A stretch of 64,000 bases of DNA, taken from Minisyncoccota bacterium (GTDB lineage: Bacteria; Patescibacteriota; Minisyncoccia; Phycocordibacterales; UBA9973). Below the pieces are notes generated by a model. The model did no database searches. It was given only the letters and a program-made list of their open reading frames with translations, and was not told the origin of the DNA. The stretch is from positions 13,819 to 77,818 of the forward strand of contig JBAYHW010000005.1 of assembly GCA_041665925.1 (NCBI GenBank). The letters run 5' to 3'. Each line of letters starts with the position of its first letter. The first letter of the stretch is position 1. The position numbers and the translations under genes were made by a program. Shown one piece after another: positions 3,843-35,660 of this stretch.

Positions 3843-5689
3843 TAATAAAAAATACACAACAAAATAGAGGGTTCGTGATTCTCTTTGCGGTAACCATTGC
3901 GGCGATTCTTTTAACCATAGCTTTAGGTGTGGCCAACATTGCGCAAAAAGAAATAAAATTTAGTACTTCAGCTAAAGATACCAATGAAGCTCTTCTTTCG
4001 GCAGATACCGGTATTGAGTGTGCACTTTTATACGATAAAAATAATGCTTTCCCCATCGGCGGACCAGCAAAACCCCTTACTTGTGCTTCATCTAATATTA
4101 TTCCTGTATTTTCAAGATCGGCTACTGTTGGTTCCTACGATTTTTATATTTCTGGGGTAGGTAATAATATAAAAAATTGTGTCAAAGTAAATGTTACTAA
4201 AGATAGTGCTGCTGTTTCCGCTACGGTAAGAACAACAATAACTTCTAAGGGTTATAACAACAGTGATCCAGGTTCTATAAATTGTGAGTTAGTTAATCCT
4301 GAAAATGTTAACGAGCGTGTTCTCGAAGTGACATACAATACCGGAGATTCTCCAAGCGCTCCTCCATCCACTGTTCCAGTTTGTGATACTACCTTCCCTA
4401 ATGATAAATTTAATGTTTGTTATTTTGCTTTTACTCCTACTGCCGGCGATCCTCCAATTGCTGAACCAATTACAGACGGGACAACTCCAATATTATATAG
4501 TCAGTATCCTGACCCACTAGCAACTAGTGTTGGGTCGTCATCAAGTCCAGTAGGAACTTGGGCAGGTTTTGACCATGATTGGGGAGCTTCACCTCTAGAT
4601 AATGCTATTTCTCCAACCAGTCAAAATAATGAAGTTACTGCTATATGGCGAGGGCGGATAAATTTTAAGGCGGGGACCTATACCTTTAGAACTACTTCTG
4701 ATGATGGAGTTCGTTTAAACGTAGAAGGCGTTGACGTTATTAACAATTGGACTCTTCATGGTATAACCGGGGACAGTGCTTCGGTGACTTTTCCTACTGC
4801 TGGTTATAGAAATGTCCAATTGAGTTGGTTTGAGCATACCGGAGGAGCACGAATTAGATTTAGGTGGGACTATTCAGCTACAGGAATAGGTAGTGGTGGG
4901 GATATAACAAATTCGGGAGGATATACTATCCACACATTTAAGAATAGCGGAACATTTACTGCTCCAAGTACTGTATCTTCTGTTGAAGTTCTTGTGGTGG
5001 GGGGCGGTGGCGGTGGCGGGAAAAGACATGGAGGAGGAGGGGGAGCAGGAGGAGTAATTTACAACGGTTCTTATAGCGTTACTCCAGGTCTAAGTATTCC
5101 CGTGACTGTCGGTGGAGGCGGAGCAGGTGGCATTGAACAGGTTATTGAATCGGATAAAGGAGGACAGCCCGGAGGGGATTCTATTTTTGGAACACTTACA
5201 GCTAAAGGAGGTGGAGGGGGAAGAACGTACGGTCCAGGAGGAACCTCTGGAGCTGGAGGATCTGGCGGAGGAGGCTCAGGGATTTCTCCCGATGCTCGGT
5301 TGGGTGGAACAGGGACATCTGGGCAAGGTAAGAATGGGGGGTCTGGTAGTTCTTCAACGTCAAGTGGAGGTGGTGGTGGGGGTGCGAGTGCATTAGGGGG
5401 AACTGGCGGTACTAATGGCGGAAACGGTGGGGCCGGGTTGCCATATTCTATTTCTGGTTTATCGTTGTATTATGGCGGCGGCGGCGGCGGCGGGAGTGAG
5501 AATGTTGGTGGAAGTGGTGGATTGGGTGGAGGTGGACATGGGGGTGACCAAGGAGGAACAGTAAACCAAACCGCTGGTAGCCCTAATACAGGAGGGGGGG
5601 GTGGAGGGTCTCGAAGTATTATTCCAGAGACAGACAATGGCTCTGACGGTGGGTCTGGTGTTGTAATTATTCGTTACCCTACTCCTTAA
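3839..5689 (+). CDS. PilX-N-like giant minor pilin/tip protein with a PA14-like domain and a long glycine-rich C-terminal tail (about 616 aa)
   Basis: The ATG at 3839 overlaps the previous stop. N-terminus QQNRG|FVILFAVTIAAILLTIALGVANIA resembles the PilX N-terminal pseudopilin helix, which lacks E+5. The central block AIWRGRINFKAGTYTFRTTSDDGVRLNVEGVDVINNWTLHG...VQLSWFEHTGGARIRFRW matches the PA14/GLEYA beta-sandwich signature. The C-terminal 250 aa are runs of GGGGxGG. The ORF track starts at the in-frame TTG at 3827, but the ATG at 3839 is preferred. Confidence 0.7.
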   Translation: MIIKNTQQNRGFVILFAVTIAAILLTIALGVANIAQKEIKFSTSAKDTNEALLSADTGIECALLYDKNNAFPIGGPAKPLTCASSNIIPVFSRSATVGSYDFYISGVGNNIKNCVKVNVTKDSAAVSATVRTTITSKGYNNSDPGSINCELVNPENVNERVLEVTYNTGDSPSAPPSTVPVCDTTFPNDKFNVCYFAFTPTAGDPPIAEPITDGTTPILYSQYPDPLATSVGSSSSPVGTWAGFDHDWGASPLDNAISPTSQNNEVTAIWRGRINFKAGTYTFRTTSDDGVRLNVEGVDVINNWTLHGITGDSASVTFPTAGYRNVQLSWFEHTGGARIRFRWDYSATGIGSGGDITNSGGYTIHTFKNSGTFTAPSTVSSVEVLVVGGGGGGGKRHGGGGGAGGVIYNGSYSVTPGLSIPVTVGGGGAGGIEQVIESDKGGQPGGDSIFGTLTAKGGGGGRTYGPGGTSGAGGSGGGGSGISPDARLGGTGTSGQGKNGGSGSSSTSSGGGGGGASALGGTGGTNGGNGGAGLPYSISGLSLYYGGGGGGGSENVGGSGGLGGGGHGGDQGGTVNQTAGSPNTGGGGGGSRSIIPETDNGSDGGSGVVIIRYPTP

Positions 5690-5707
5690 TTAGAATTTAT
5701 TTCTGCT

Positions 5708-7804
5708 ATGGAAAAAGAGAGAGTTAAAAACCGAATAAAAAAATTGCGGGCGGAGATTGCGCGGTTACGGGGAGAGTATCATATCAAGAATGCCCCAAAC
5801 GTGACGGATGACGTCTATGATTCTTTGACCCGGGAGCTCAAGAGTCTACTGAAAGAATTTCCAGAATTTGAAGATGCTAATTCTAAAGAAAACAGAGTGG
5901 CCGGAAAGCCATTGGATAAATTTGTAAAAGTAAAGCATAAAAACAGGATGCTTTCTTTGAACGATGCTTTCAGTGAAGAAGAACTTAAGGATTGGGAAAA
6001 AAGAATTAAAAAATTACTGGTCGGAGACACAAAGTTCAATTATTTTTGTGAGGTAAAATTTGATGGTTTGGCCGTGTCGCTTATTTATGAAAATGGAAAA
6101 TTTATAAAAGGTGCTACGAGGGGGGATGGATTTGTCGGAGAAGACATAACTCAAAATTTAAAAACAATTCATTCTATACCGCTTGAACTTAAAAGTCCTT
6201 ACCCGAAATATGTTGAAGTTCGTGGGGAAGCAGTAATGTCTAAAAAGACTTTAGAAAAATTAAATAAAATAAACGAAAAAGAAGGTAAAGTCTTATTTGC
6301 TAACACCAGAAATGCAGCTGCTGGGAGCTTGCGTCAGCTCGACCCCAAGCTCGCAGCCGAAAGAAGCTTAGACTTCTTTTCCTATGATATAGCTGAAATT
6401 TCTGAAGACGAAAAATTAATTACGCATTCTGACAAGCATAAGTATCTAAAAAGCTTAGGTTTCCCCGTAGATAGTCATGACGCAGTATGTAAAAATTTAG
6501 GAGAAGTCACTTCTTTTATTAAAAAATTTGAAAAAATTAGGGCGGGATTTGCGTATGGCACAGATGGAGTCGTTATCTCAGTAGATGATTTAAGATTACA
6601 AGAAGTGCTAGGGGTAGTAGGTAAGGCCCCTAGGTATATGTCTGCCTTTAAGTATCCAGCCGAGAGGGCTACTACAGTGGTGAAAGATGTGAAAATAAAT
6701 GTTGGGCGCACTGGCGTGCTTACTCCGCTCGCCATATTTGAGCCCACGCTTGTAGCGGGCTCTATGGTGGGCAAGGCGACCTTGCATAACATGGATCAGA
6801 TAGAACGCTTAGATTTACGTATTGGAGACACTGTGGTTATAGAAAAAGCAGGGGATGTGATTCCGAAAGTGGTGGAAGTTTTAACTCGGATGCGTACCGG
6901 AAAAGAGAAGAAAGTAAAAATGCCGACAATTTGCCCTGTTTGCACTTCACCGGTTCAGAAAATTTCTTCGCGCTTAACCCTAAAGGGCTCCGACACGACT
7001 CAGAAATTTTCCAAACCCGCTACGCAATCAGTGGCTTACTACTGCAGTAATCCTAAGTGTCCGGCAAAAAATGAACGATATTTAGAACATTTTGTTTCTG
7101 TTTTTGAAATATATGAGTTGGGGCCGAAAATTTTAAGACGTTTTAAAGACGAGGGACTTATCACTGATGCTGCAGACTTATTCTCACTGACTAAAGATGA
7201 TTTTACTACTTTGAAAGGCCTGCCCCGTAGGAAGTCGCAGACTTTCCTGTCGGGGTTCGGCGACAAGTCAGCACAAAATATAATCAACGAGATAAACCAC
7301 AAGAAGAAAATTCCATTATCTAAATTTTTATGGGCTCTCGGGATATTGCATGTGGGGGAGGAAACAGCACGAGATCTAGCTGTCCATTTTGGCACATTAG
7401 AAAAATTAACAATTTCAGCACAAAATCACGGAGAAGAAATTGATAGTATAGAAAATATTGGTCCGGCAGTTTTGAAAAGTGTCACCAACTTTTTCAATGA
7501 TAAAAGTAATTTGAACTTTATTAAAAAATTAGAAAAAAATGGAGTAGTAGTAGAAAAAGCAGAAAAAAAGAAAGCGGGGAAATTTTCAGGCATGCTTTTT
7601 GTTCTCACGGGCACACTTTCTACTATGTCTCGCGAAGTAGCGAAAGAAAAAATCTTGGCACTAGGTGGTAAAGTTTCCGGATCCGTTTCTAGAAATACCA
7701 ATTATGTAGTAGCAGGGGAAGAACCTGGTTCAAAACTTGTTACAGCTCAAAAATTAGGAGTAAAAATACTGAGTGAGAAAGAATTTTTAAATTTCCTAGT
7801 ATAG
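5708..7804 (+). CDS. ligA: NAD-dependent DNA ligase
   Basis: Adenylation motif CEVKFDG (KxDG), OB/zinc-finger/HhH regions and a C-terminal BRCT (GxxFVLTG...KLG). 698 aa. Confidence 0.93.
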   Translation: MEKERVKNRIKKLRAEIARLRGEYHIKNAPNVTDDVYDSLTRELKSLLKEFPEFEDANSKENRVAGKPLDKFVKVKHKNRMLSLNDAFSEEELKDWEKRIKKLLVGDTKFNYFCEVKFDGLAVSLIYENGKFIKGATRGDGFVGEDITQNLKTIHSIPLELKSPYPKYVEVRGEAVMSKKTLEKLNKINEKEGKVLFANTRNAAAGSLRQLDPKLAAERSLDFFSYDIAEISEDEKLITHSDKHKYLKSLGFPVDSHDAVCKNLGEVTSFIKKFEKIRAGFAYGTDGVVISVDDLRLQEVLGVVGKAPRYMSAFKYPAERATTVVKDVKINVGRTGVLTPLAIFEPTLVAGSMVGKATLHNMDQIERLDLRIGDTVVIEKAGDVIPKVVEVLTRMRTGKEKKVKMPTICPVCTSPVQKISSRLTLKGSDTTQKFSKPATQSVAYYCSNPKCPAKNERYLEHFVSVFEIYELGPKILRRFKDEGLITDAADLFSLTKDDFTTLKGLPRRKSQTFLSGFGDKSAQNIINEINHKKKIPLSKFLWALGILHVGEETARDLAVHFGTLEKLTISAQNHGEEIDSIENIGPAVLKSVTNFFNDKSNLNFIKKLEKNGVVVEKAEKKKAGKFSGMLFVLTGTLSTMSREVAKEKILALGGKVSGSVSRNTNYVVAGEEPGSKLVTAQKLGVKILSEKEFLNFLV

Positions 7805-21028: not shown

Positions 21029-21065
21029 TTTCTATCCTATTTATATTTGTTTTGTATAATGGTAC

Positions 21066-21321
21066 ACTTTTATTTGGATGAAAGGGGGTGATACAATGCT
21101 GAGTGACCGGAGACACTGGCGAGAGGCTCAGAGTCGAGACGACCAAAATAAATGGTCTCGACTCCCTGGGGCCACGGTGTCCGTCGCTTCTCTCCTTCCC
21201 GACGGGGAGGGAGCGAAGACCGAGAATTGTCTCCCCGACGATTCTCCCTCCGATGAACAGTCGGAGGAAAGCTAGGGGACCAGGAGGCTGTCGCATCTGC
21301 GGCCGCCTCCTCTTCTTTTTT
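21066..21321 (+). ncRNA. GC-rich, highly structured transcription unit of about 255 nt with its own -10 box and intrinsic terminator. Candidate novel structured ncRNA. It alternatively encodes an acidic 59-aa ORF (21096-21275) preceded by the SD AAAGGGGGTGAT.
   Basis: TATAAT at 21055-21060 with an upstream TG. Perfect 10-bp hairpin GAGTCGAGAC/GTCTCGACTC. A 13-bp helix CTCCTTCCC-GACG-GGGAGGGAG. A CCTCCGA/TCGGAGG helix. Terminator AGGAGGC...GCCTCCT plus T-run at 21282-21321. About 60% GC against about 40% in the flanks. Confidence 0.45.
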
Positions 21322-23510: not shown

Positions 23511-25238
23511 TTATTTTTTATTCTTAATTTCTTCTAAAAGTTTTGAGATAAGTTCTTCTTTTGAAATTTGGCCTAGCTGGCCGGCGTCTCGGCATTCCAA
23601 AGTAATTTTGTTTGCTTCAATTTCTTTATCGCCGATAACTATCCAGTAAGGGAGCTTGTTATTTTTAGCATCGCGGACTTTGCCCCCCAAGTTTCCATCA
23701 TTATCATCTAGTTCAGCGCGAATATTATTTTCTTTCAATAACTCAAAAACCTTTCTAGCTTCAGCGTTATGATTTTCGCGAACAGGGATGACTTTCACCT
23801 GCACTGGTGCGAGCCAGAGAGGGAAGGCGCCGGCGGTGTGTTCTACGAGAATTCCGATGAATCTCTCCAGAGATCCATAAATTACCCTGTGTATTGCTAC
23901 AGGTCTTTTTCTTGTGCCATCTTTATCCATATATTCTAGTTCAAAACGCTGTGGTTGCTGAAAATCTAATTGAATAGTACCCATTTGCCAATCACGACCA
24001 ATTGCATCTTTCATTATGATGTCTATTTTAGGTCCATAAAATGCGCCATCTCCTTCAGCGACAGAATATTCCTTATCTGATTTTTCTAAAACATTTCGGA
24101 GGGCTTGTTCGGCCTTATTCCAAGTTTCTATTTCACCCAAAAAGCTTTCTGGGCGGGTTCCTAACCTGAAACGATATTCCAAATTAAATATTCCATAGAA
24201 TTCTTTACAAATTTCCATAATAGATCGGTATTCATCTTCTATCATGTCTTCGCTGACATAATTGTGAGAATCGTCTTGCTGGAAAGAGCGACAGCGGAGG
24301 AGGCCATTCAATGTTCCTGATCTTTCATATCTATGAAGTCTATCAGTATCTGACAAGCGGAGGGGCAGGTCTTTATAACTCACTTGCATGGATTTGAACA
24401 CTACCATGGCGTTCGGACAATTCATTGGCTTGATACCATAAACTTCATTTTCTCCCATGTCTGCAATGAACATGTCATCTTTATAGTGGTCCCAGTGTCC
24501 AGATGTTTTCCAGAGATCAGATTTATTTACTAATGGGCTTGCAATTTCTAAATAACCAAGTTCATTGTGCCTTTTGCGCCAATAGTTTTCTAACTCTTTA
24601 TATAAGATTAAACCTTTAGGTAACCAATACGGCATTCCTGGAGAAGTTTCATGGAACATAAAAAGCCCTAGCTCGCGGCCAAGTTTCTTATGGTCCCTTT
24701 TTTCTGCTTCCTCTCTTTGTGCTAGATAAGCATCTAGTTCTTCTTTATTTTTGAAAGCTAATCCGTAAATACGGGTGAGCATTTTATTTTTTTCATCTCC
24801 ACGCCAGTATGCTCCGGCTATGCGGTCGAGCTTGAAAGAGTCAGGTAGTACTTCATCCATATTCTCCACATGTCCGCCCTTACATAAATCCCAGTAACTC
24901 CCAGATTTATAAAAAGTTACCTTTTGTCCTTCTTTAGTAAATTCATCTATTAGTTCTGCCTTGTAGGGGTTGCCTGGGTATTCTTTTTTTGCTTCGTTAC
25001 CAGAGAGTTCATGTTTTTCGAATTTCTTCCAAGTAGGTAAAATTTTATGCATTACCTTCTCTATCTTTGGTAAGTCCGCATCCGAAAGGGGGCTAGAGAA
25101 TTCAAAGTCGAAATAAAAACCATTATCTATCGCTGGGCCAATGGTGCGCTTGGTATCTGGGTAGAGTTCCATAACTGCTGCGGCGAGTAGGTGAGCCAAT
25201 GAATGCCTTAAATTGTGCAATTTATCAGGGTTTTCCAT
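23511..25238 (-). CDS. thrS: Threonyl-tRNA synthetase (short form, 575 aa)
   Basis: Class II catalytic core and anticodon-binding domain. The HxxxH/CxxxH-type zinc site region matches ThrRS. Confidence 0.88.
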   Translation of the reverse strand: MENPDKLHNLRHSLAHLLAAAVMELYPDTKRTIGPAIDNGFYFDFEFSSPLSDADLPKIEKVMHKILPTWKKFEKHELSGNEAKKEYPGNPYKAELIDEFTKEGQKVTFYKSGSYWDLCKGGHVENMDEVLPDSFKLDRIAGAYWRGDEKNKMLTRIYGLAFKNKEELDAYLAQREEAEKRDHKKLGRELGLFMFHETSPGMPYWLPKGLILYKELENYWRKRHNELGYLEIASPLVNKSDLWKTSGHWDHYKDDMFIADMGENEVYGIKPMNCPNAMVVFKSMQVSYKDLPLRLSDTDRLHRYERSGTLNGLLRCRSFQQDDSHNYVSEDMIEDEYRSIMEICKEFYGIFNLEYRFRLGTRPESFLGEIETWNKAEQALRNVLEKSDKEYSVAEGDGAFYGPKIDIIMKDAIGRDWQMGTIQLDFQQPQRFELEYMDKDGTRKRPVAIHRVIYGSLERFIGILVEHTAGAFPLWLAPVQVKVIPVRENHNAEARKVFELLKENNIRAELDDNDGNLGGKVRDAKNNKLPYWIVIGDKEIEANKITLECRDAGQLGQISKEELISKLLEEIKNKK

Positions 25239-25286
25239 AATATTATGACTATATCACAATTGTGGGTTTTTTTAAACCCATTTTGC

Positions 25287-25315
25287 TTGACAAAAAATTT
25301 TTTAGGTGTAGCGTG
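25287..25315 (+). promoter_or_regulatory. Candidate sigma70 promoter (TTGACA-16 nt-TAGCGT) for the small GC-rich gene
   Basis: Consensus -35 seen at 25287-25292. The -10 is weak. Confidence 0.4.
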
Positions 25316-25344
25316 AAAACGAGTCTGTAGAAAGGAGACCGATC

Positions 25345-25488
25345 ATGACTCAGACGTACGGTGTCTTCAATCCGCCTCCGGAGTCCAAAAAAGCTCCGCG
25401 GTGGAAGATCATCGTCCTCATTCTGTCTGGGCTCGTTCTCGGTGGCGTTGGTTGGTACCAATTTGTCCACCTTGCGGCACAGCAGTAA
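25345..25488 (+). CDS. Small GC-rich single-TM peptide (47 aa), MTQTYGVFNPPPESKKAPRWKIIVLILSGLVLGGVGWYQFVHLAAQQ
   Basis: Strong SD GAAAGGAG 8 nt upstream of the ATG. A clean hydrophobic helix. A canonical terminator follows immediately. Not in the ORF track because it is under 60 aa. About 58% GC. Confidence 0.55.
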   Translation: MTQTYGVFNPPPESKKAPRWKIIVLILSGLVLGGVGWYQFVHLAAQQ

Positions 25489-25500
25489 AACGGACCAAGC

Positions 25501-25540
25501 GGGGTTGTCGCAGAACATCGCGACAACCCCACTTCTTTTC
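25501..25540 (+). terminator. Intrinsic terminator GGGGTTGTCGC-loop-GCGACAACCCC followed by CTTCTTTTC
   Basis: Perfect 11-bp stem plus a T-run, directly after the 47-aa ORF. Confidence 0.8.
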
Positions 25541-25618
25541 ACGTGACCCCCATTTTAAATGAAATACGATATATTTAGGATTTGCAATTCACCCATAATA
25601 TGCTAGTATAAAAACACT

Positions 25619-25846
25619 ATGGTAGTACGAATGAGACATACAAAATCGCATACGAAAAACAGGCGCTCGCATCATGCACTAAAGAGCACTAGTTTTACGA
25701 AGTGCGAAAACTGCAAAGCTTTAAAGCGACGACACACCGTCTGCTCTGCTTGTGGCTTTTATCGAGGGAAAAAGGTTTTAGATTTGATTAAGAAGACAGA
25801 AAAGAAGCAAAAGAAAGCCAAAGCCAAGAAAGCTGAATCCAAATAA
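25619..25846 (+). CDS. rpmF: 50S ribosomal protein L32 (bL32)
   Basis: N-terminus MVVRMRHTKSHTKNRRSHHAL and the zinc ribbon CENC...CSAC. Confidence 0.85.
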   Translation: MVVRMRHTKSHTKNRRSHHALKSTSFTKCENCKALKRRHTVCSACGFYRGKKVLDLIKKTEKKQKKAKAKKAESK

Positions 25847-25868
25847 GTAATTTTTGTTTTTTAACACA

Positions 25869-26801
25869 ATGGCAAATAGGCACCTTTCCAGATCAATAGT
25901 GCTCCAGACGCTTTTTGAGTGGGACTTCTCATCTCAAGATAAGAAAACTAAAAACCTAAATAGCGAAGAAGTACAAGAAACTTTAAAAAGAAATTTAAAA
26001 GAATTCGCTCCTGGTTTTGAGGATGATGTTTTCGTATTTTCTCTCATAGATAAGGTGTTAAAAAAACAAACAGTCATAGATGAGATTATTGGAAAAGCAG
26101 CCCCGGACTGGCCAATAGATAAAATTTCTGTCATTGATAGAAATATTTTAAGAATTGGGCTTACCGAGCTTCTTTTTGGTGATAGAAAAGAAGTGCCTCC
26201 GAAAGTGGCTATAAATGAAGCGATAGAGTTGGCGAAAACTTTTGGCGGAGAGAACTCTGGCAAATTTGTAAACGGCGTCCTCGGTGCTGTGTATAAAGAG
26301 ATAGGGGAGCCGGGTAAAGAGCAAATCAGTAAAAAGAAAAAAACAGACGAACCTGTCGATATAACAAAGTTGCCTATAGATAAAAAGGGAGGGGCTCTGG
26401 TATACGCTGACCATGATGGGAAAATAATGTTTGCCCTAGTGCACGACGTGTTTGGATACTGGACAATTTCCAAAGGAACAATTGAAGACGGAGAAAACGA
26501 AAAAGAGGCTACTATTAGGGAAATAAAAGAAGAGATAGGGCTTGATATTGAGATACAAGAAAAGTTGGGAGAGAATGAGTACGTTGCTTCTCACCCCGAA
26601 AAAGGAAAAAGTTTAAAAAAGGTGGTATATTTTTTAGCTAAAAGTGAATGTAAGGAATTAGAATTAGAAAAGTCTGGAGGCCTAGACGGAGCTCGTTGGT
26701 TTGAGCTTTCAGCTATACCCGAACTTCGAATTTATAATGATATTATCCCATTGATTAGTAAAGCAATTGAAATATTAACCACCGCCAAAGCGGGACAATA
26801 A
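25869..26801 (+). CDS. nusB: NusB antitermination factor fused to a C-terminal Nudix hydrolase domain (about 310 aa)
   Basis: The NusB fold (RHLSRSIVLQTLFEWDF ... ILRIGLTELLF) is followed by the Nudix box GTIEDGENEKEATIREIKEEIGL (Gx5Ex7REUxEExGU). Confidence 0.8.
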   Translation: MANRHLSRSIVLQTLFEWDFSSQDKKTKNLNSEEVQETLKRNLKEFAPGFEDDVFVFSLIDKVLKKQTVIDEIIGKAAPDWPIDKISVIDRNILRIGLTELLFGDRKEVPPKVAINEAIELAKTFGGENSGKFVNGVLGAVYKEIGEPGKEQISKKKKTDEPVDITKLPIDKKGGALVYADHDGKIMFALVHDVFGYWTISKGTIEDGENEKEATIREIKEEIGLDIEIQEKLGENEYVASHPEKGKSLKKVVYFLAKSECKELELEKSGGLDGARWFELSAIPELRIYNDIIPLISKAIEILTTAKAGQ

Positions 26802-29671: not shown

Positions 29672-29716
29672 AAATAGAGTGTTAATCTTTACCTTGGGTA
29701 GCAGGAAGGAGAAACG

Positions 29717-29974
29717 ATGCGAAGTCGCCCCTTTGAGGAGACGATCCTCGAGACGATAAGCGAGATGTGCATTCCCCAGGTCGAACTGGTGGCCAATCTG
29801 ATACTTAGGACCACCATCAACAACAACCACGATGAGATTGCCGTCGCCTGGCGGGAGCGATGCCTGGAACTGGGACTCCGCGACCACATGGATGTGGTCG
29901 CGGCGCTCGAGTTTAAAAGGCGAAGTATCCAGCCCGCCTACAACGCTGTTTTCTCTGGCATTTTCGATCAGTAG
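29717..29974 (+). CDS. GC-rich hypothetical protein (85 aa), MRSRPFEETILETISEMCIPQVELVANLILRTT...
   Basis: Strong SD GGAAGGAGA 4 nt upstream of the ATG. Followed by the hairpin AGCCCG...CGGGCT plus a T-rich tract. About 55% GC. No family recognised. Confidence 0.45.
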   Translation: MRSRPFEETILETISEMCIPQVELVANLILRTTINNNHDEIAVAWRERCLELGLRDHMDVVAALEFKRRSIQPAYNAVFSGIFDQ

Positions 29975-30034
29975 TAGCAGTGAGCCCGTGTGAGGAGTCC
30001 GCGTACTATACGCTACCCCGCGGGCTTTCTCATT

Positions 30035-30202
30035 TTATTTCTTCCAATCTTTAACCTGCACGCCACCTTGGATTTTAGTGACCACGAGCTTCTGCCGTTC
30101 TTTCCAGCCGAGTGCTCGCACGACTTCGATCGGCAGAGTCAAATAATATGACCCGCCCGACTGCTGTAGATTTCTAATTTTTGCATCTTTTATTTTTCTC
30201 AT
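30035..30202 (-). CDS. AbrB/MazE/SpoVT-fold (swapped-hairpin) small DNA-binding protein, 55 aa
   Basis: The minus-strand translation MRKIKDAKIRNLQQSGGSYYLTLPIEVVRALGWKERQKLVVTKIQGGVQVKDWKK shows the characteristic pattern: a G-rich turn followed by a LTIPKEIREKLGL-like strand-helix. Not in the ORF track because it is under 60 aa. Confidence 0.6.
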   Translation of the reverse strand: MRKIKDAKIRNLQQSGGSYYLTLPIEVVRALGWKERQKLVVTKIQGGVQVKDWKK

Positions 30203-30276
30203 CCCGTTAGAAATTAAGCTAATAAATAAATCCTGTTAGCTTGACGGAAATCTAAAGATTTCCTATTTCTAACGGG
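30203..30276 (-). repeat. Inverted-repeat cassette, copy 1: CCCGTTAGAAAT...ATTTCTAACGGG, flanked by ATGAG on both sides and containing a 22-aa mini-ORF (30214-30282)
   Basis: 12-bp terminal inverted repeats seen in the sequence. A second copy is at 33062-33126. Confidence 0.7.
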
Positions 30277-30290
30277 ACTCATACATGTAA

Positions 30291-30338
30291 GTATATACCA
30301 ATCCCTGGGGATATCCCTAGGGAAGTCCCTAGGGATTC
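30291..30338. promoter_or_regulatory. Operator-like repeat block: GTATATACCAATCCCTGGGGATATCCCTAGGGAAGTCCCTAGGGATTC, carrying tandem TCCCTAGGGA palindromes. Direct repeat of 31060-31096.
   Basis: It lies in the divergent region between the AbrB-like gene on the minus strand and the two small GC-rich ORFs on the plus strand. Confidence 0.6.
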
Positions 30339-30404
30339 GCAAGAATCCTATATCTGGACAATAGTAATATTTAATGTTAGAAAATACTTGAAGGAGGACT
30401 CGAT

Positions 30405-30611
30405 ATGAATTATCGAGCAAAGATCAAGCGGGCCAGAGCCCGCCGGTACCACGAACGTTGGAAGGCAGCGCGACGCGCTGGCCTTCCCAAGGGCCCCAGC
30501 GGGACCACCAAGTCGAATCTGCTTCGGCCGAGCAAGCCGGTACGTCGGGCACACCAGAAGGAGGGGGACGGGTGGTGCCCCGAATGCTGGTCTTTCATGT
30601 GCCGGGCGTGA
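30405..30611 (+). CDS. GC-rich small basic protein (68 aa), Arg/Lys-rich, with C-terminal CPECWSFMC
   Basis: Strong SD GAAGGAGGAC 5 nt upstream of the ATG. A candidate -35/-10 pair (TGGACA ... TAGAAA) upstream. Confidence 0.45.
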   Translation: MNYRAKIKRARARRYHERWKAARRAGLPKGPSGTTKSNLLRPSKPVRRAHQKEGDGWCPECWSFMCRA

Positions 30612-30635
30612 GCGGCCTGGGGCTGTCAATCAAAA

Positions 30636-30908
30636 ATGCACAAGGAGGAGGTTACCGTGTTCGTAATTGAGCATCTCGAGCAGTTTTGCCAAGACCACCC
30701 CGAGTTCTTCGGCGATAACACGCGTGAGTGTGTTATCGCCGAAGCCAAGAACCGGGCGAACGAGGAAGGAGTTCTCATGTCCGCTGAAGCCGAGAGCCTT
30801 CTCGGCCCGACTCTCGCGTTCCAGTTCTTCTCGGAGATGACTAGCACGAGCAAGCATCTCCAGATCAGCATGGAAGTTGCGGAGCGTCTGCGGAAGAGCG
30901 TTCGGTAA
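30636..30908 (+). CDS. GC-rich small acidic protein (84-90 aa). The probable start is the GTG at 30657, which is preceded by AAGGAGGAGG.
   Basis: An SD sits 5 nt before the in-frame GTG. The ORF is followed by the CCCCG...CGGGG hairpin and, further downstream, the terminator at 31019-31056. Confidence 0.4.
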   Translation: MHKEEVTVFVIEHLEQFCQDHPEFFGDNTRECVIAEAKNRANEEGVLMSAEAESLLGPTLAFQFFSEMTSTSKHLQISMEVAERLRKSVR

Positions 30909-31018
30909 TCCTGGTTAGCACAACCCCGTCGACGACAGCGAAGTCGGCGGGGTGGGGCTGGTGGGTTCTTTAAAATCGTGTTAGTAAAACACGAACCTTA
31001 AAAGGGTTCGTTGTATCG

Positions 31019-31056
31019 AGCCCTGCAAGGAAAAGAACTCTTGCGGGGCTTTTCTA
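31019..31056 (+). terminator. Intrinsic terminator AGCCCTGCAAG-loop-CTTGCGGGGCT followed by TTTTCT
   Basis: Stem plus T-run at the right edge of the GC-rich island. Confidence 0.7.
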
Positions 31057-31059
31057 ATT

Positions 31060-31116
31060 GGTATATACCAATCACTAGGGAAGTCCCTAGGGACTGATCT
31101 ACGCCATGGCGTAGAT
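31060..31116. repeat. Second copy of the operator-like repeat (TGGTATATACCAATCACTAGGGAAGTCCCTAGGGACT) followed by a perfect 20-bp palindrome ATCTACGCCATGGCGTAGAT
   Basis: TGGTATATACCA (12 bp) and AGTCCCTAGGGACT (14 bp) are perfect palindromes. The 20-bp palindrome is at 31097-31116. Confidence 0.7.
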
Positions 31117-31141
31117 TTCTTAGTATATTATATATGATAGA

Positions 31142-33061
31142 TTAAGGAAGTTTTAATTTTTCCTCTTTGGCAGGGATTATTTTATTTAGTTGGAAAACAG
31201 AGTTAAGTTGGGTTTGATTTTTCTTTACTGATATAGAGCCGTCGCGGTTTAACTTTATTTCTAGAAGCATACCTTGCATCGTAGCTTTACTCCATGATTG
31301 GTCAAACACAAAGTTCCCGAGAGAGTAGGCAATGAAACTCGCGCACGAACTTTGAGTGCAATCTTTCCTGCTGTATACTTCTGTATCTTCAACTACGTGC
31401 GGATGATGTCCGATAACTATTTTTGCCCCCGCATCCACGGCTTTATGGGCGAGATATTCCTGACGAGCATTGTGCCTTGGTTTATATTCATCGCCGAAAT
31501 GGAAAGAAACGACGAGATAATCTACTTGCTTTGCAGCATTTTGAACTATCTCATTAAAACGAGGGTTGCTAGCGAGGAGTACACCTGCTTTTTCTTCTCC
31601 GGCTTCCATCCACGAAGGGCCGACGTCAGAAAACCCAAGGTAACCTATTTTCATCCCATATTTTTCTATGATGACTGGAGTCTCAGCCTCAGCGCGGTTA
31701 TAGCCTCCGCCAGTATAATGTATTTCATTTTCTTTCAAGCGCCCTAGAGTGTCAACGTATGCAGTGCGCCCCCAGTCTCCCACGTGATTATTCGCAAGAG
31801 ATAAAACACCCACTCCGGCCCCTTTGAGCGCGGGGATTACGCCGGGGTCCATTCTAAATGAATATAAATTTTTCTGGTCAACTCCTTGATCTGACGCGGT
31901 GCCCTCTAAATTGGCGAAAGCGATGTCTGACTTTTTAAATATATCTACTTTTTCAAAGATAGCTGAGTAATCATTGTTGAAATTTTTTACCACCGAAGAC
32001 CTCACGCCACGGTCGAGCATTATGTCTCCACCGAAAGCTAGCATTACGAAAGATGGATCTTTTATTTCTGGTAGACCAACTTTTTCTTTAACCCAGTCGG
32101 TGTTAGCGTCAGCTTTCCCTCCATAATAAATATATTTTTTTAAATATTTTACAATTGATTCCACATCTTTCTTCCTATCAGTACTCTGAAGTAGGGTGAT
32201 GGCTATAGGGCGAGTGCCAGTTTCACTAAGAGGAAGATTGAAAAGAGATACTACTGTTTGCTTGGCAGGGTCGGTGTAGCCACTTTTACCTCCTGTGTAT
32301 CCGTCTTGGCCTAAAAATTGGCTGATGTTGGACCAGCTGTGCTTTTTGTTTGTGTAGCTTCTTTTTGTGGTAATGCCCACTAGGTCTGGTTTTTCTTTCG
32401 TTAAGTATCCGGTTAATTTAAAAATATCAGAGACAGTAGATTTATTGTTTATAGAAAGTCCGCTCGGATCGGCAAATGAAGTGTTTGGCATTTTTAGAAT
32501 CTCTGCCACCTCATTCATTTTTGAAATAAAGGAATCTCTACCGAAATGTTCGGCGATGGCTTCAGCCGCGTCGTTGCTAGATTCTAAAAGGAGCGGGTAG
32601 AGCAGGTCGGTAGTTTTTATTTTTTCCCCAAGTTTTAATTCTCCATTGGAGCCAGAGGTAGCTAGAGCTTTTTTGCTGACTTGTACTGTGTCATCTGCGT
32701 TGGTTATTTCTGTGGCTACTAGAGCTGTCATCAGCTTGGAGACCGAAGCGATAGGGAAGGCCACTTCTTGATTTTTTGAGAGAATGACTTCACCAGTATT
32801 CAAATCTCCGACAAGATATGCTTTCGCGGAGACCTTCGGTCCGCCGTTCGTGTCTTTATTGACATAAAAATATTGAGATTTTATCTCTTCGCGGTCTTTA
32901 GGAATAAGCTGAACTACTGAAGCGAGATTGTTTGATGATTGCCGGAAGTCGTTAATATTAAGGGCAGAAAATACTGACGATGTAAAAAATACTCCAATTA
33001 ATATTGAAAATGTGGTCCACAGTATTACATTTATTTTTTTTCTTTTTTGAATAGGACTCAT
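31142..33061 (-). CDS. Fusion protein: N-terminal D-alanyl-D-alanine carboxypeptidase (S11/PBP5-like) plus C-terminal CapA/PGA-type metallophosphoesterase (639 aa)
   Basis: Signal-anchor. The SxxK motif ASVSKLMTALV, the SxN motif ESSNDAAEA and the KTG motif GGKSGYT. Then the CapA motifs FANLEG, GYNRAE, VSFHFGDEY, GHHPHV and GNFVFDQ. Confidence 0.8.
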   Translation of the reverse strand: MSPIQKRKKINVILWTTFSILIGVFFTSSVFSALNINDFRQSSNNLASVVQLIPKDREEIKSQYFYVNKDTNGGPKVSAKAYLVGDLNTGEVILSKNQEVAFPIASVSKLMTALVATEITNADDTVQVSKKALATSGSNGELKLGEKIKTTDLLYPLLLESSNDAAEAIAEHFGRDSFISKMNEVAEILKMPNTSFADPSGLSINNKSTVSDIFKLTGYLTKEKPDLVGITTKRSYTNKKHSWSNISQFLGQDGYTGGKSGYTDPAKQTVVSLFNLPLSETGTRPIAITLLQSTDRKKDVESIVKYLKKYIYYGGKADANTDWVKEKVGLPEIKDPSFVMLAFGGDIMLDRGVRSSVVKNFNNDYSAIFEKVDIFKKSDIAFANLEGTASDQGVDQKNLYSFRMDPGVIPALKGAGVGVLSLANNHVGDWGRTAYVDTLGRLKENEIHYTGGGYNRAEAETPVIIEKYGMKIGYLGFSDVGPSWMEAGEEKAGVLLASNPRFNEIVQNAAKQVDYLVVSFHFGDEYKPRHNARQEYLAHKAVDAGAKIVIGHHPHVVEDTEVYSRKDCTQSSCASFIAYSLGNFVFDQSWSKATMQGMLLEIKLNRDGSISVKKNQTQLNSVFQLNKIIPAKEEKLKLP

Positions 33062-35087: not shown

Positions 35088-35123
35088 TGTATTTAATATA
35101 GCAAATATGGGGCAAAATAGTGG

Positions 35124-35152
35124 TTGACAAGCACCCCAAAATGTGCTATACT
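35124..35152 (+). promoter_or_regulatory. Near-consensus sigma70 promoter TTGACA-17 nt-TATACT
   Basis: -35 at 35124-35129 and -10 at 35147-35152, upstream of the GC-rich lipoprotein gene. Confidence 0.65.
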
Positions 35153-35209
35153 ATACCACAGAAGAGCGAGGTGGCCATTTAAGCACCTGCTCAAAAGGAG
35201 AATTGACAA

Positions 35210-35590
35210 ATGAAGAAGCTCATCGTCATCCTGGTGGCCGTGTTGGCCACCGCCTGCGCCACCACCGGCGTGAAGCTCGCGGAGCAGGCCGCTCCGCAGA
35301 CGGTTCTCTTCGCTGACGTGACCACCTGCCTCAAGGCGGCCATTGACGCAACACTGACTCCGACGGCGGCAGCGGAATTCTGTCTCGAGGCAAGACGTCT
35401 CGAAGCCGACCGCGCAAAAGCCACCGCCGAAGCAGCGGCCAAGGCGGAGGCGAACAAGCCGGCATGTGGGCTCTGCCTCATGCCGGGGACAGGATACGGA
35501 TACTACAACACGTATCCACCGCCTCCGCCGCGACCGATCGGCGGCTACACCAACACCGTCGTAGCATACACGGAACACAAGGTGAAGTAG
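35210..35590 (+). CDS. GC-rich small lipoprotein (126 aa) with lipobox LATAC, an Ala-rich helix and a C-terminal PPPPPRP/Tyr-rich tail
   Basis: SD AAAAGGAGA 8 nt upstream. Signal peptide MKKLIVILVAVLATAC. About 62% GC with high GC3. Its own promoter and terminator. Confidence 0.6.
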   Translation: MKKLIVILVAVLATACATTGVKLAEQAAPQTVLFADVTTCLKAAIDATLTPTAAAEFCLEARRLEADRAKATAEAAAKAEANKPACGLCLMPGTGYGYYNTYPPPPPRPIGGYTNTVVAYTEHKVK

Positions 35591-35622
35591 GCATCACATC
35601 GAAGGGGATGTTTTCGTCCCAA

Positions 35623-35660
35623 GGCGTCGTCGCAATCGCACGACGCCTTTTCATTTTCAT
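35623..35660 (+). terminator. Intrinsic terminator GGCGTCGT-loop-ACGACGCC followed by TTTTCATTTTCATTTTTC
   Basis: 8-bp GC stem plus a T-rich tail directly after the lipoprotein ORF. Confidence 0.7.

What the first reader, a model, noticed from the sequence alone, without database searches (positions are those of the whole stretch)
25280..25545. Stand-alone 47-aa transmembrane peptide gene with its own promoter and terminator between thrS and rpmF
TTGACA at 25287, SD GAAAGGAG, the ORF MTQTYGVFNPPPESKKAPRWKIIVLILSGLVLGGVGWYQFVHLAAQQ, and a perfect 11-bp terminator. It is unannotated because it is under 60 aa. The architecture (a proline-rich N-terminal segment and one TM helix) resembles type I toxin or small membrane stress peptides. 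A 7-bp palindrome TGGGTTTTTTTAAACCCA lies just upstream at 25265-25280.
Basis: partly seen in the sequence, partly recalled or inferred. Interest (0 to 1): 0.55.

Follow-up and report, generated by a model that had tools for sequence, protein, structure and literature searches.

The report
Acquired small membrane-protein gene cassette
A real but unannotated 47-residue membrane-protein gene, with its own promoter and terminator, sits on about 318 bp of GC-rich foreign DNA inserted between thrS and rpmF of an AT-rich Paceibacterota (CPR) genome; it has one known relative, and nothing marks it as a toxin.

Summary
The described features are all present, with small coordinate corrections. The ORF at 25345-25488 is most likely a genuine gene. 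A 59-aa relative (P0002, on the 594-bp groundwater contig L081) shares the transmembrane core LVLGGVGWYQ. It also shares the start codon, a 12/12 identical ribosome-binding block and a 30/33 identical promoter, and it has a hairpin after the stop. Differences between the two fit selection on the + frame (dN/dS about 0.21).

Fourteen distinct relatives, with ThrS up to 87% identical, have only 55-88 bp between thrS and rpmF. Window positions ~25260-25580 are therefore a lineage-specific insertion. It is compositionally foreign: GC3 is 0.62 against 0.33 for native genes. It has a strong Shine-Dalgarno sequence in a genome where 3 of 49 genes have one.

The product is predicted to be tail-anchored, with a disordered basic N-terminus and one helix (residues 19-45) that has an invariant glycine-rich face.

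The type I toxin idea is not supported. No antisense promoter was found, the ribosome-binding site is not sequestered, the leader is short and there is one copy. It is also not a T-box, although some relatives carry one there.

The biochemical function is unknown. This is an orphan accessory gene of moderate interest.

The parts
25260..25580 (.). Inserted block (edges uncertain by about 6 bp) between the native thrS promoter and the native rpmF promoter.
   Evidence: Fourteen distinct relatives have a 55-88 bp thrS-rpmF spacer. These are 10 GTDB species representatives with a compact spacer (the other three GTDB loci examined have 244, 276 and 923 bp there) and the closest relatives L083/L084 and L085 (87% ThrS). 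L085 aligns as ...CACAAAATCC|TTTGCAATTCACC against the window's ...CACAATTG[insert]TTTGCAATTCACC. The block is 50-56% GC against 28-40% in the flanks.
25263..25280 (.). Palindrome TGGGTTTTTTTAAACCCA at the left junction. It contains the -35-like TTTAAA of the thrS promoter on the minus strand.
   Evidence: It is not present in L081.
25287..25319 (+). Conserved promoter block: -35 TTGACA (25287-92), an A6T6 spacer, -10 TAGCGT (25309-14) and the discriminator GTGAAAA.
   Evidence: It is 30/33 identical to L081 137-169. This is far more conserved than synonymous sites (Fisher p = 5e-6). It is unique in the window and in 0.93 Mb of related loci. The tool's consensus scan did not score it, because the -10 is weak.
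25330..25341 (+). Shine-Dalgarno block GAAAGGAGACCG.
   Evidence: It is 12/12 identical in L081. Only 3 of 49 native gene starts in the window have any SD-like motif.
25345..25488 (+). Coding sequence for the 47-aa protein MTQTYGVFNPPPESKKAPRWKIIVLILSGLVLGGVGWYQFVHLAAQQ.
   Evidence: The homologue P0002 scores E 2e-4 against 1.84 billion representative proteins. BLASTP gives 52% identity over 42 aa. Over 34 aligned codons there are 11 synonymous and 15 nonsynonymous changes, giving dN/dS 0.21. The BLOSUM62 sum is 103 in this frame and at most 70 in the other five. AlphaFold2 predicts a helix at residues 19-45 and a disordered N-terminus. The best 19-aa hydropathy window is residues 22-40.
25497..25539 (.). 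Bidirectional intrinsic-terminator hairpin (15-nt arms, 11 of them perfect, 8-nt loop) with a T-rich tail on the + strand. On the minus strand it is followed by GGTCCGTTTT.
   Evidence: The equivalent hairpin in L081 keeps its pairs through two-sided changes.
25248..25276 (-). thrS promoter (TTTAAA-17-TATAGT with TG). The -10 ends 9 nt before the ATG, so thrS is probably leaderless.
   Evidence: The -10 region ('ATATCACA' in rpmF orientation) is conserved in relatives.
25582..25609 (+). Native rpmF promoter (TTGCAA-16-TAGTAT), retained downstream of the insert.
   Evidence: It aligns with the relatives' TTTGCA(T/A)TTCA...ATATGCTAG(G/T)AT.

Best explanation
This is a genuine, laterally acquired, self-contained gene for a small tail-anchored membrane protein. 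It is a 'moron-like' unit: promoter, gene and terminator with foreign base composition.

Shown:
- About 318 bp of GC-rich DNA is inserted into the otherwise compact divergent thrS/rpmF promoter region of a Paceibacterota genome.
- The unit carries a consensus -35, a strong SD, a 47-codon ORF and a strong hairpin terminator.
- The same unit, from promoter to terminator, exists in a second AT-rich genome in a different gene neighbourhood.
- Its coding frame is under purifying selection.

Inferred:
- It is transcribed as a monocistronic mRNA of about 215 nt and translated through the SD.
- The product inserts post-translationally. Its basic, disordered N-terminal ~20 residues stay in the cytoplasm, with one helix (about residues 21-43) across the membrane.
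- It acts through tight helix-helix packing on its invariant small-residue face (L-S-x-L-V-L-G-G-V-G-W-Y-Q). The partner would be either copies of itself or a host membrane protein.
- I favour an accessory modulator or envelope protein over a toxin. The biochemical role is not established.
For: Homology and coding:
- P0002 is the only small-protein hit in 1.84 billion representatives (E 2e-4); the other three hits below E 0.001 are long repetitive proteins matched over about 22 residues.
- The pair shares LVLGGVGWYQ, with third-position changes only.
- dN/dS is 0.21, and the + frame has the best BLOSUM score of the six frames.
- The ATG, the SD block (12/12) and the promoter block (30/33) are conserved.
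- The ORF lengths differ by 36 nt, which is 12 codons.

Insertion:
- Compact 55-88 bp spacers occur in 14 distinct relatives, including those with 87% ThrS identity.
- An independent assembly of the same organism (L082) has the identical sequence.

Foreign character:
- GC3 is 0.62 against 0.326 +/- 0.065 for native genes (binomial p = 1e-5).
- The cassette has an SD, while only 3 of 49 native genes do.

Different context in L081:
- Its flanks are not ThrS or L32, and they have no homologue in the window.

Topology:
-.

Similar units in the same window:
- Other GC-rich, SD-led units are inserted in the same window.
Against: - Only two family members are known. Searches of the 5.8-billion protein index, GTDB species representatives, JGI metagenome contigs, IMG/VR, phage and plasmid records, Pfam, PHROGs, PADLOC, NCBIfam and PDB sequences found nothing else.
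- There is no expression data.
- The -10 element is weak (3/6).
- No terminal repeats, target-site duplication or mobility gene explain how the block was inserted.
- Two sequences cannot separate constraint on the protein from constraint on the RNA with certainty. One antisense frame shares its third codon positions with the + frame.
- The function is inferred from sequence features only.
Confidence: 0.7

Rival explanations
1. It is a type I toxin-antitoxin locus: a membrane-depolarising peptide whose mRNA is held in check by an antisense RNA.
For: The product is a small hydrophobic single-pass peptide encoded by an autonomous cassette. It was acquired laterally and has a very narrow distribution. 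The mRNA folds much better than shuffles (z = -5.4 in the window and -4.2 in L081). The terminator is bidirectional, as in convergent toxin/antitoxin pairs.
Against: - No sigma-70-like promoter lies on the antisense strand in either copy, and inspection found no conserved candidate.
- SD/AUG pairing equals the shuffled control: 0.61 against 0.61 in the window, and 0.51 against 0.60 in L081.
- The leader is short.
- Much of the folding z-score comes from the terminator; the ORF alone gives z = -2.9.
- The helix is C-terminal behind a long hydrophilic segment, unlike Hok, Fst, TisB, Ldr or Ibs (from my own knowledge of these families).
- A 10-residue invariant helix face is more than a generic pore former would need.
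- There is a single copy.
- There is no match in NCBIfam or PADLOC.
Confidence: 0.13
2. It is a structured small RNA gene, or a dual-function RNA, and the ORF is incidental.
For: It is a GC-rich island in an AT-rich genome with its own promoter and terminator. Folding z-scores are strong. RNAalifold reports 10 pairs kept through two-sided changes, including the hairpin around the palindromic TGGTACCA. Another GC-rich promoter-terminator unit at 21050-21312 could be an sRNA.
Against: - There is no Rfam match even at E <= 10 apart from terminator-like noise.
- Substitutions fit protein constraint in the + frame (dN/dS 0.21, conservative I/V/L exchanges).
- The SD, the ATG and the stop position are conserved.
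- The length difference is a multiple of three.
- With only two sequences, covariation counts are weak evidence.
Confidence: 0.08
3. It is non-functional foreign DNA, such as a fragment taken up by transformation or the truncated N-terminal signal-anchor of a larger gene, that merely still contains an ORF.
For: The family is extremely rare. There is no expression evidence and no mobility machinery. The motif 'basic residues, then hydrophobic stretch, then GG-x-G-W-Y' resembles N-terminal signal anchors of larger bitopic proteins (a recollection, not tested).
Against: Two diverged copies keep the same architecture: promoter, SD, ATG, a stop 7-8 codons after WYQ, and a terminator. Synonymous sites are saturated (dS about 1.6) while dN/dS is 0.21. 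No larger protein matched in 1.84 billion representatives.
Confidence: 0.07
4. It is a cis-regulatory leader. One version is a leader peptide and attenuator for the rpmF operon. The other is a thrS leader (T-box or similar) read from the minus strand.
For: The order ORF, hairpin, rpmF has the look of an attenuator. Relatives L039, L052, L087 and L088 do carry a T-box-like thrS leader of 244-276 bp in this very spacer.
Against: - rpmF keeps its own conserved promoter downstream of the hairpin, and thrS keeps its gene-proximal promoter.
- L081 has the cassette next to unrelated genes.
- There is no T-box match on either strand at E <= 10.
- The window spacer has no significant similarity to the relatives' T-box leaders.
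- On the minus strand the hairpin lies about 260 nt from the thrS ATG, which is the wrong place for an attenuator.
Confidence: 0.02

Closest known systems
Phage/prophage 'morons' (autonomous promoter-gene-terminator units with deviant GC content; for example the HK97 gp15 moron, which encodes a membrane protein for superinfection exclusion; from my own knowledge)
   Same: One gene is bracketed by its own promoter and intrinsic terminator. Its base composition and translation signals differ from the neighbours. It is absent from otherwise syntenic relatives. The product is a membrane protein.
   Different: It is not inside a recognisable prophage. It sits between two core housekeeping genes. 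It has no sequence similarity to any phage record or PHROG. An exclusion function has not been tested.
Stand-alone bacterial small membrane proteins that modulate larger membrane complexes (AcrZ, MgrB, MgtS, KdpF, CydX; from my own knowledge)
   Same: It is under 50 aa with a single transmembrane helix. It has its own promoter and terminator, like acrZ or mgrB. The conserved helix face is rich in small residues, which suggests specific helix packing.
   Different: There is no sequence relationship. The helix is C-terminal (tail-anchored). The partner is unknown. The gene is laterally acquired and nearly unique rather than conserved across a clade.
Type I toxins (Hok, Fst, TisB, Ldr, Ibs, TxpA, BsrG)
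   Same: It is a small hydrophobic peptide with a structured mRNA, an autonomous locus, a patchy distribution and a bidirectional terminator.
   Different: No antisense RNA promoter was found, the SD is not sequestered, the leader is short, the helix is C-terminal and there is one copy.

Membership tests
Type I toxin-antitoxin system | Small (<60 aa) hydrophobic peptide with a transmembrane helix. | tested here: met
   The protein is 47 aa. The best hydropathy window is residues 22-40, and AlphaFold2 predicts a helix at 19-45.
Type I toxin-antitoxin system | Antisense or divergent small RNA gene with its own promoter, overlapping or complementary to the toxin mRNA. | tested here: not met
   The consensus scan finds no antisense-strand promoter in the cassette in the window or in L081. 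The only hits on that strand in the window are the thrS promoter (two overlapping registers, 25276/25275-25248). The scan uses a sigma-70 consensus only, so a non-canonical promoter is not excluded.
Type I toxin-antitoxin system | Toxin mRNA structure that sequesters the ribosome-binding site. | tested here: not met
   The paired probability of SD..AUG is 0.61 (window) and 0.51 (L081). Controls with shuffled downstream sequence give 0.61 and 0.60.
Type I toxin-antitoxin system | Toxicity on overexpression. | not testable with these tools
   This needs an expression assay.
Moron-like autonomous gene cassette | A single gene flanked by its own promoter and a factor-independent terminator. | tested here: met
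   TTGACA-16-TAGCGT, and a hairpin at 25497-25534 with a T tail. Both are conserved in L081.
Moron-like autonomous gene cassette | Present in one genome and absent at the same site in related genomes. | tested here: met
   Fourteen distinct relatives have a 55-88 bp spacer. Others hold a T-box leader or a different insert.
Moron-like autonomous gene cassette | Nucleotide composition different from the surrounding genes. | tested here: met
   GC is 50-56% against 28-40%. GC3 is 0.62 against 0.326 +/- 0.065.
Moron-like autonomous gene cassette | Located within a prophage or phage genome. | tested here: not met
   The neighbours are gyrB, thrS, rpmF, nusB-NUDIX, rnc and smc. There is no phage, IMG/VR or PHROG match.
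T-box leader (RF00230) for thrS | Match to the T-box covariance model on the thrS strand upstream of thrS. | tested here: not met
   The window region 25200-25640 gives no T-box hit at E <= 10. Relatives do give one: L088 at 36.4 bits (E 8e-7) and L052 at 21.9 bits. There is no sequence similarity to those leaders.
Known small-protein families (Pfam, NCBIfam, PHROGs, PADLOC, PDB) | Profile match above the curated cut-off. | tested here: not met
   The best hits are Pfam SpoVAC at 16.5 bits (cut-off 25) and YkpC at 13.5 bits (cut-off 27.7). The other libraries give nothing.

The most novel reading that the evidence does not exclude
The 47-aa gene may be one example of a class of promoter-carrying micro-cassettes circulating among CPR/Patescibacteria. 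These would be GC-rich, Shine-Dalgarno-led genes for envelope proteins. They would insert, without any recognisable transposase or terminal repeats, into intergenic regions (two of the four lie between divergent genes) of AT-rich genomes that otherwise do not use SD. The window holds four such units: this peptide, a 126-aa lipoprotein at 35.1-35.65 kb, a 1.4-kb island at 29.7-31.1 kb, and a unit at 21.05-21.31 kb. The promoter of the 47-aa cassette is more conserved than its synonymous sites, which would then mark a dedicated regulator or a mobility determinant.
Probability: 0.15. Interest if true: 0.6.

Novelty: new member of a known kind. Interest (0 to 1): 0.35.

Why it matters
It adds an unannotated small-protein family with two members to CPR bacteria. 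It also shows a concrete case where a core, tightly packed divergent promoter region accepted a complete foreign transcription unit. If the several GC-rich, SD-led units in this window share an origin, they would point to an unrecognised gene pool and translation strategy acting on episymbiotic bacteria. Taken alone, however, this is an orphan accessory gene of unknown function.

Tried and rejected
Searches for further family members all found nothing beyond P0002:
- the word-index protein search with the peptide and with the two-sequence profile;
- back-translated pattern scans of GTDB species genomes, JGI metagenome contigs and IMG/VR;
- the promoter DNA pattern in IMG/VR;
- blastn and tblastn against phage and plasmid records;
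- tblastn for paralogues in the window and in 81 loci.

Other checks:
- Rfam on both strands gave only terminator-like noise.
- The T-box hypothesis for the window was rejected.
- The antisense frame that shares third codon positions with the + frame (WYQPTPPRT) was considered as the true coding frame. It was rejected because it diverges non-conservatively outside the palindromic core and scores BLOSUM 66 against 103.
- A search for terminal inverted repeats or a target-site duplication found only an internal 8-bp repeat (CCCATTTT; seen by eye in the sequence and not reported by the repeat search) and a 20-nt, 75% complementary inverted repeat (25305-25324 / 25531-25550). The position of that repeat is not clearly conserved in L081.
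- Similarity between the two copies to the right of the terminator is not above shuffles: score 18 against 15 +/- 2.7.
- The exact-sequence look-up of the window's L32 failed.
- The GC-island ORFs have no relatives in IMG/VR.
- The flanking gene fragments of L081 have no Pfam match.

Full report
OBSERVATION. The region was read directly and every stated element is there.
- TTGACA lies at 25287-25292.
- GAAAGGAG lies at 25330-25337, with 7 nt between GGAG and the ATG.
- The ORF at 25345-25488 encodes the stated 47 residues.
- A perfect 11-bp stem (25501-25511 / 25520-25530) has an 8-nt loop and the tail ACTTCTTTTC. The stem extends to 15-nt arms at 93% complementarity.
- The same hairpin also scores as a terminator on the minus strand, so it is bidirectional.
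- The palindrome is at 25263-25280.
- The likely -10 is a weak TAGCGT, 16 nt after the -35. The tool's consensus scan did not list this promoter.
- The neighbours are thrS (minus strand) and rpmF (Pfam L32p, E 3e-16).

The ORF alone proves nothing, because four ORFs of 53-97 aa overlap it in other frames.

WHAT THE REGION IS NOT. Rfam finds no family here at gathering thresholds. At E <= 10 it finds only terminator-like noise. ARAGORN finds nothing here.

COMPOSITION. The stretch 25300-25550 is 50-56% GC, inside flanks of 28-40%. GC3 of the ORF is 0.62. For 49 native ORFs in the window, GC3 is 0.326 +/- 0.065, giving binomial p = 1e-5. Only 3 of 49 native gene starts have any SD-like motif. 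thrS, rpmF and gyrB have a -10 box ending 8-9 nt before the ATG, so they are probably leaderless. The cassette's strong SD is therefore foreign to this genome's habits.

IT IS AN INSERTION. The ThrS protein places the window in Patescibacteria/Paceibacterota. An identical ThrS is named as being from a Candidatus Paceibacterota MAG. A second assembly, L082, has the identical spacer sequence.

In 10 GTDB species representatives, rpmF starts 55-88 bp from thrS. The closest relatives found, at 87% ThrS identity (L083/L084, L085), have spacers of about 60-73 bp.

L085 aligns on both sides: ...CACAAAATCC|TTTGCAATTCACC against the window's ...CACAATTG[~318 bp]TTTGCAATTCACC. This places the insert at about 25260-25580. 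Both native promoters survive. The thrS -10 is next to the gene, and the rpmF promoter is TTGCAA-16-TAGTAT at 25582-25609.

The spacer is a variable spot in this clade.
- L039, L052, L087 and L088 hold a T-box-like thrS leader. L088 scores 36.4 bits (E 8e-7) and L052 scores 21.9 bits.
- L086 holds a 343-aa ORF.
- L003 holds 923 bp.

The window insert has no T-box match and no similarity to those leaders.

IT IS A CONSERVED UNIT AND A CODING GENE. A phmmer search of 1.84 billion representative proteins returned one small protein, P0002 (59 aa, E 2e-4). The three other hits were repetitive eukaryote-like proteins. P0002 lies on a 594-bp groundwater contig, L081.

L081 carries the whole unit.
- The promoter block is 30/33 identical: TTGACAAAAAATTTTTcAaGTGTAGtGTGAAAA.
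- The SD block GAAAGGAGACCG is 12/12 identical.
- The start is ATGAC in both.
- The ORF is GC-rich (GC3 0.77).
- A GC-rich hairpin follows the stop, and its pairs are kept through two-sided changes.

Its neighbours are different genes on AT-rich DNA. They are not ThrS or L32, and they have no homologue in the window.

The peptides share R/K-x-(I/V)(I/V)VL(I/V)LS-x-LVLGGVGWYQ. Within LVLGGVGWYQ all differences are synonymous. Over 34 aligned codons there are 11 synonymous and 15 nonsynonymous changes, giving dN/dS about 0.21 with dS about 1.6.

One antisense frame shares its third codon positions with the + frame and reads WYQPTPPRT in both copies. It diverges non-conservatively outside that core. 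The BLOSUM62 sums are 103 for the + frame and at most 70 for the other five. The ORF length difference is 36 nt.

I conclude that the + frame is translated.

No other member was found in any collection or profile library. There is no paralogue in the window.

PRODUCT. Hydropathy and AlphaFold2 agree (mean pLDDT 74.6). Residues 1-18 are disordered and residues 19-45 form one helix. The N-terminal segment carries net charge +3, and KKAPRWK lies just before the helix. Only about 4-7 residues follow the helix.

By the positive-inside rule (established knowledge), the N-terminus should be cytoplasmic. Because the helix is at the C-terminus, the protein would be tail-anchored.

The N-terminal segment varies in length and sequence between the two members. 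The helix face S-x-L-V-L-G-G-V-G-W-Y-Q is invariant. I infer that function depends on specific helix-helix packing, either self-association or binding to a membrane partner.

TYPE I TOXIN TEST.
- No sigma-70-like antisense promoter exists in either copy.
- SD/AUG pairing probability equals that of controls with shuffled downstream sequence.
- The predicted leader is about 14-23 nt.
- The strong folding z-scores (-5.4 and -4.2) owe much to the terminator. The ORF alone gives -2.9.
- The locus is single-copy.

The toxin reading is therefore not supported. It is also not excluded, since non-canonical antisense promoters would be missed.

UNEXPLAINED. The 33-bp promoter block, including its A6T6 spacer, is far more conserved than synonymous sites: 3/33 against about 18/27 changed, Fisher p = 5e-6. 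The block is unique to the cassette among 0.93 Mb of related DNA. A bound regulator, or a role in the unit's spread, would explain this. Neither was tested.

No terminal repeats or target duplication explain the insertion.

CONTEXT. The same window holds other GC-rich, SD-led units.
- A 1.4-kb island lies at 29,690-31,130. It sits between smc and a 639-aa gene that are only ~20-110 bp apart in relatives.
- A promoter-SD-lipoprotein-terminator cassette lies at 35,120-35,650.
- A promoter-to-terminator unit lies at 21,050-21,312.

So the 47-aa gene is one of several foreign insertions in this genome.

VERDICT. The interpretation as a stand-alone small membrane-protein gene is supported. The toxin analogy is not supported. 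The best description is a laterally acquired, moron-like cassette encoding an orphan tail-anchored membrane protein. It is a new member of a known kind, of moderate interest.

Noticed in passing
window 29690-31130: This is a GC-rich island between smc (ends 29671) and the 639-aa gene (31142-33061, minus strand). It holds small ORFs, each with a strong SD: 29717-29974 (85 aa), 30405-30611 (68 aa, very basic) and 30657-30908 (83 aa). It also holds a MazE/AbrB-like 55-aa ORF on the minus strand (30035-30202; Pfam MazE_antitoxin, E 6e-5). Copies of a 33-nt repeat, GTATATACCAATCnCTnGGGA..CCCTAGGGA, lie at 30291 and 31061 and contain palindromic TCCCTAGGGA sites. In nine relatives smc and the 639-aa gene are ~20-110 bp apart, so this is a second foreign insertion.
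   Followed up: partly
window 35120-35650: This is a third stand-alone GC-rich unit, lying between divergent genes. It has promoter TTGACA-17-TATACT (with TG), SD AAGGAGA, and ORF 35210-35590 (126 aa, GC3 0.76). The ORF begins MKKLIVILVAVLATAC, which is lipoprotein-like. A terminator, GGCGTCGT..ACGACGCC followed by a T run, comes next. There is no Pfam or Rfam match. The ORF list offers a longer antisense ORF (35093-35578) that is probably spurious.
   Followed up: partly
window 21050-21312: This GC-rich unit lies between pheT and gyrB. It has a TGnTATAAT promoter, a possible 59-aa acidic ORF starting at 21097 or a structured sRNA, and a terminator GGAGGC..GCCTCC followed by a T run. There is no Rfam match at E <= 1. 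In L082 the opposite strand was called as a 97-aa gene with no Pfam hit.
   Followed up: partly
window, all gene starts: Native genes almost never have a Shine-Dalgarno (3 of 49). thrS, rpmF and gyrB have a -10 box ending 8-9 nt before the ATG, which suggests widespread leaderless translation. All the GC-rich inserted ORFs do have strong SDs.
   Followed up: partly
L088 1258-1441; L087 ~1255-1500; L052 5723-5938; L039 ~5757-6000: Some relatives carry a divergent T-box-like leader for thrS. It has a Thr ACC specifier context (GGCTACCAACC), the sequence GGGTGGAACCGCGA and a terminator. It scores well below Rfam's gathering cut-off: 36 and 22 bits against 93. In L089 a 47-aa 'gene' was called inside this leader and is probably spurious.
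   Followed up: partly
L086 1408-2439; L003 ~5077-6001: The thrS-rpmF spacer is a variable spot. L086 has a 343-aa ORF with no Pfam domain there, and L003 has 923 bp.
   Followed up: no
window 25287-25319 vs L081 137-169: The promoter block, including its A6T6 spacer, is 30/33 identical, although synonymous sites of the adjacent ORF are saturated (Fisher p = 5e-6). The reason is unknown.
   Followed up: partly
window 25305-25324 / 25531-25550: A 20-nt inverted repeat (75% complementary) brackets the transcription unit: GGTGTAGCGTGAAAACGAGT / ACTTCTTTTCACGTGACCCC. L081 has a weaker counterpart (GTAGTG / CACTAC) in a different register. It is unclear whether the left arm is transcribed.
   Followed up: partly
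window 25507-25512, 35631-35636, 21290-21295; L081 ~388-393: The hexamer GTCGCA recurs in the 5' arm or loop of the terminator hairpins of several GC-rich units. This was seen post hoc and may be chance.
   Followed up: no
window 25854-26801: This is a NusB-NUDIX fusion protein (Pfam NusB E 1e-34, NUDIX E 9e-14). It is conserved in close relatives (L083, L085, L087, L088), but L086 has NusB alone.
   Followed up: no
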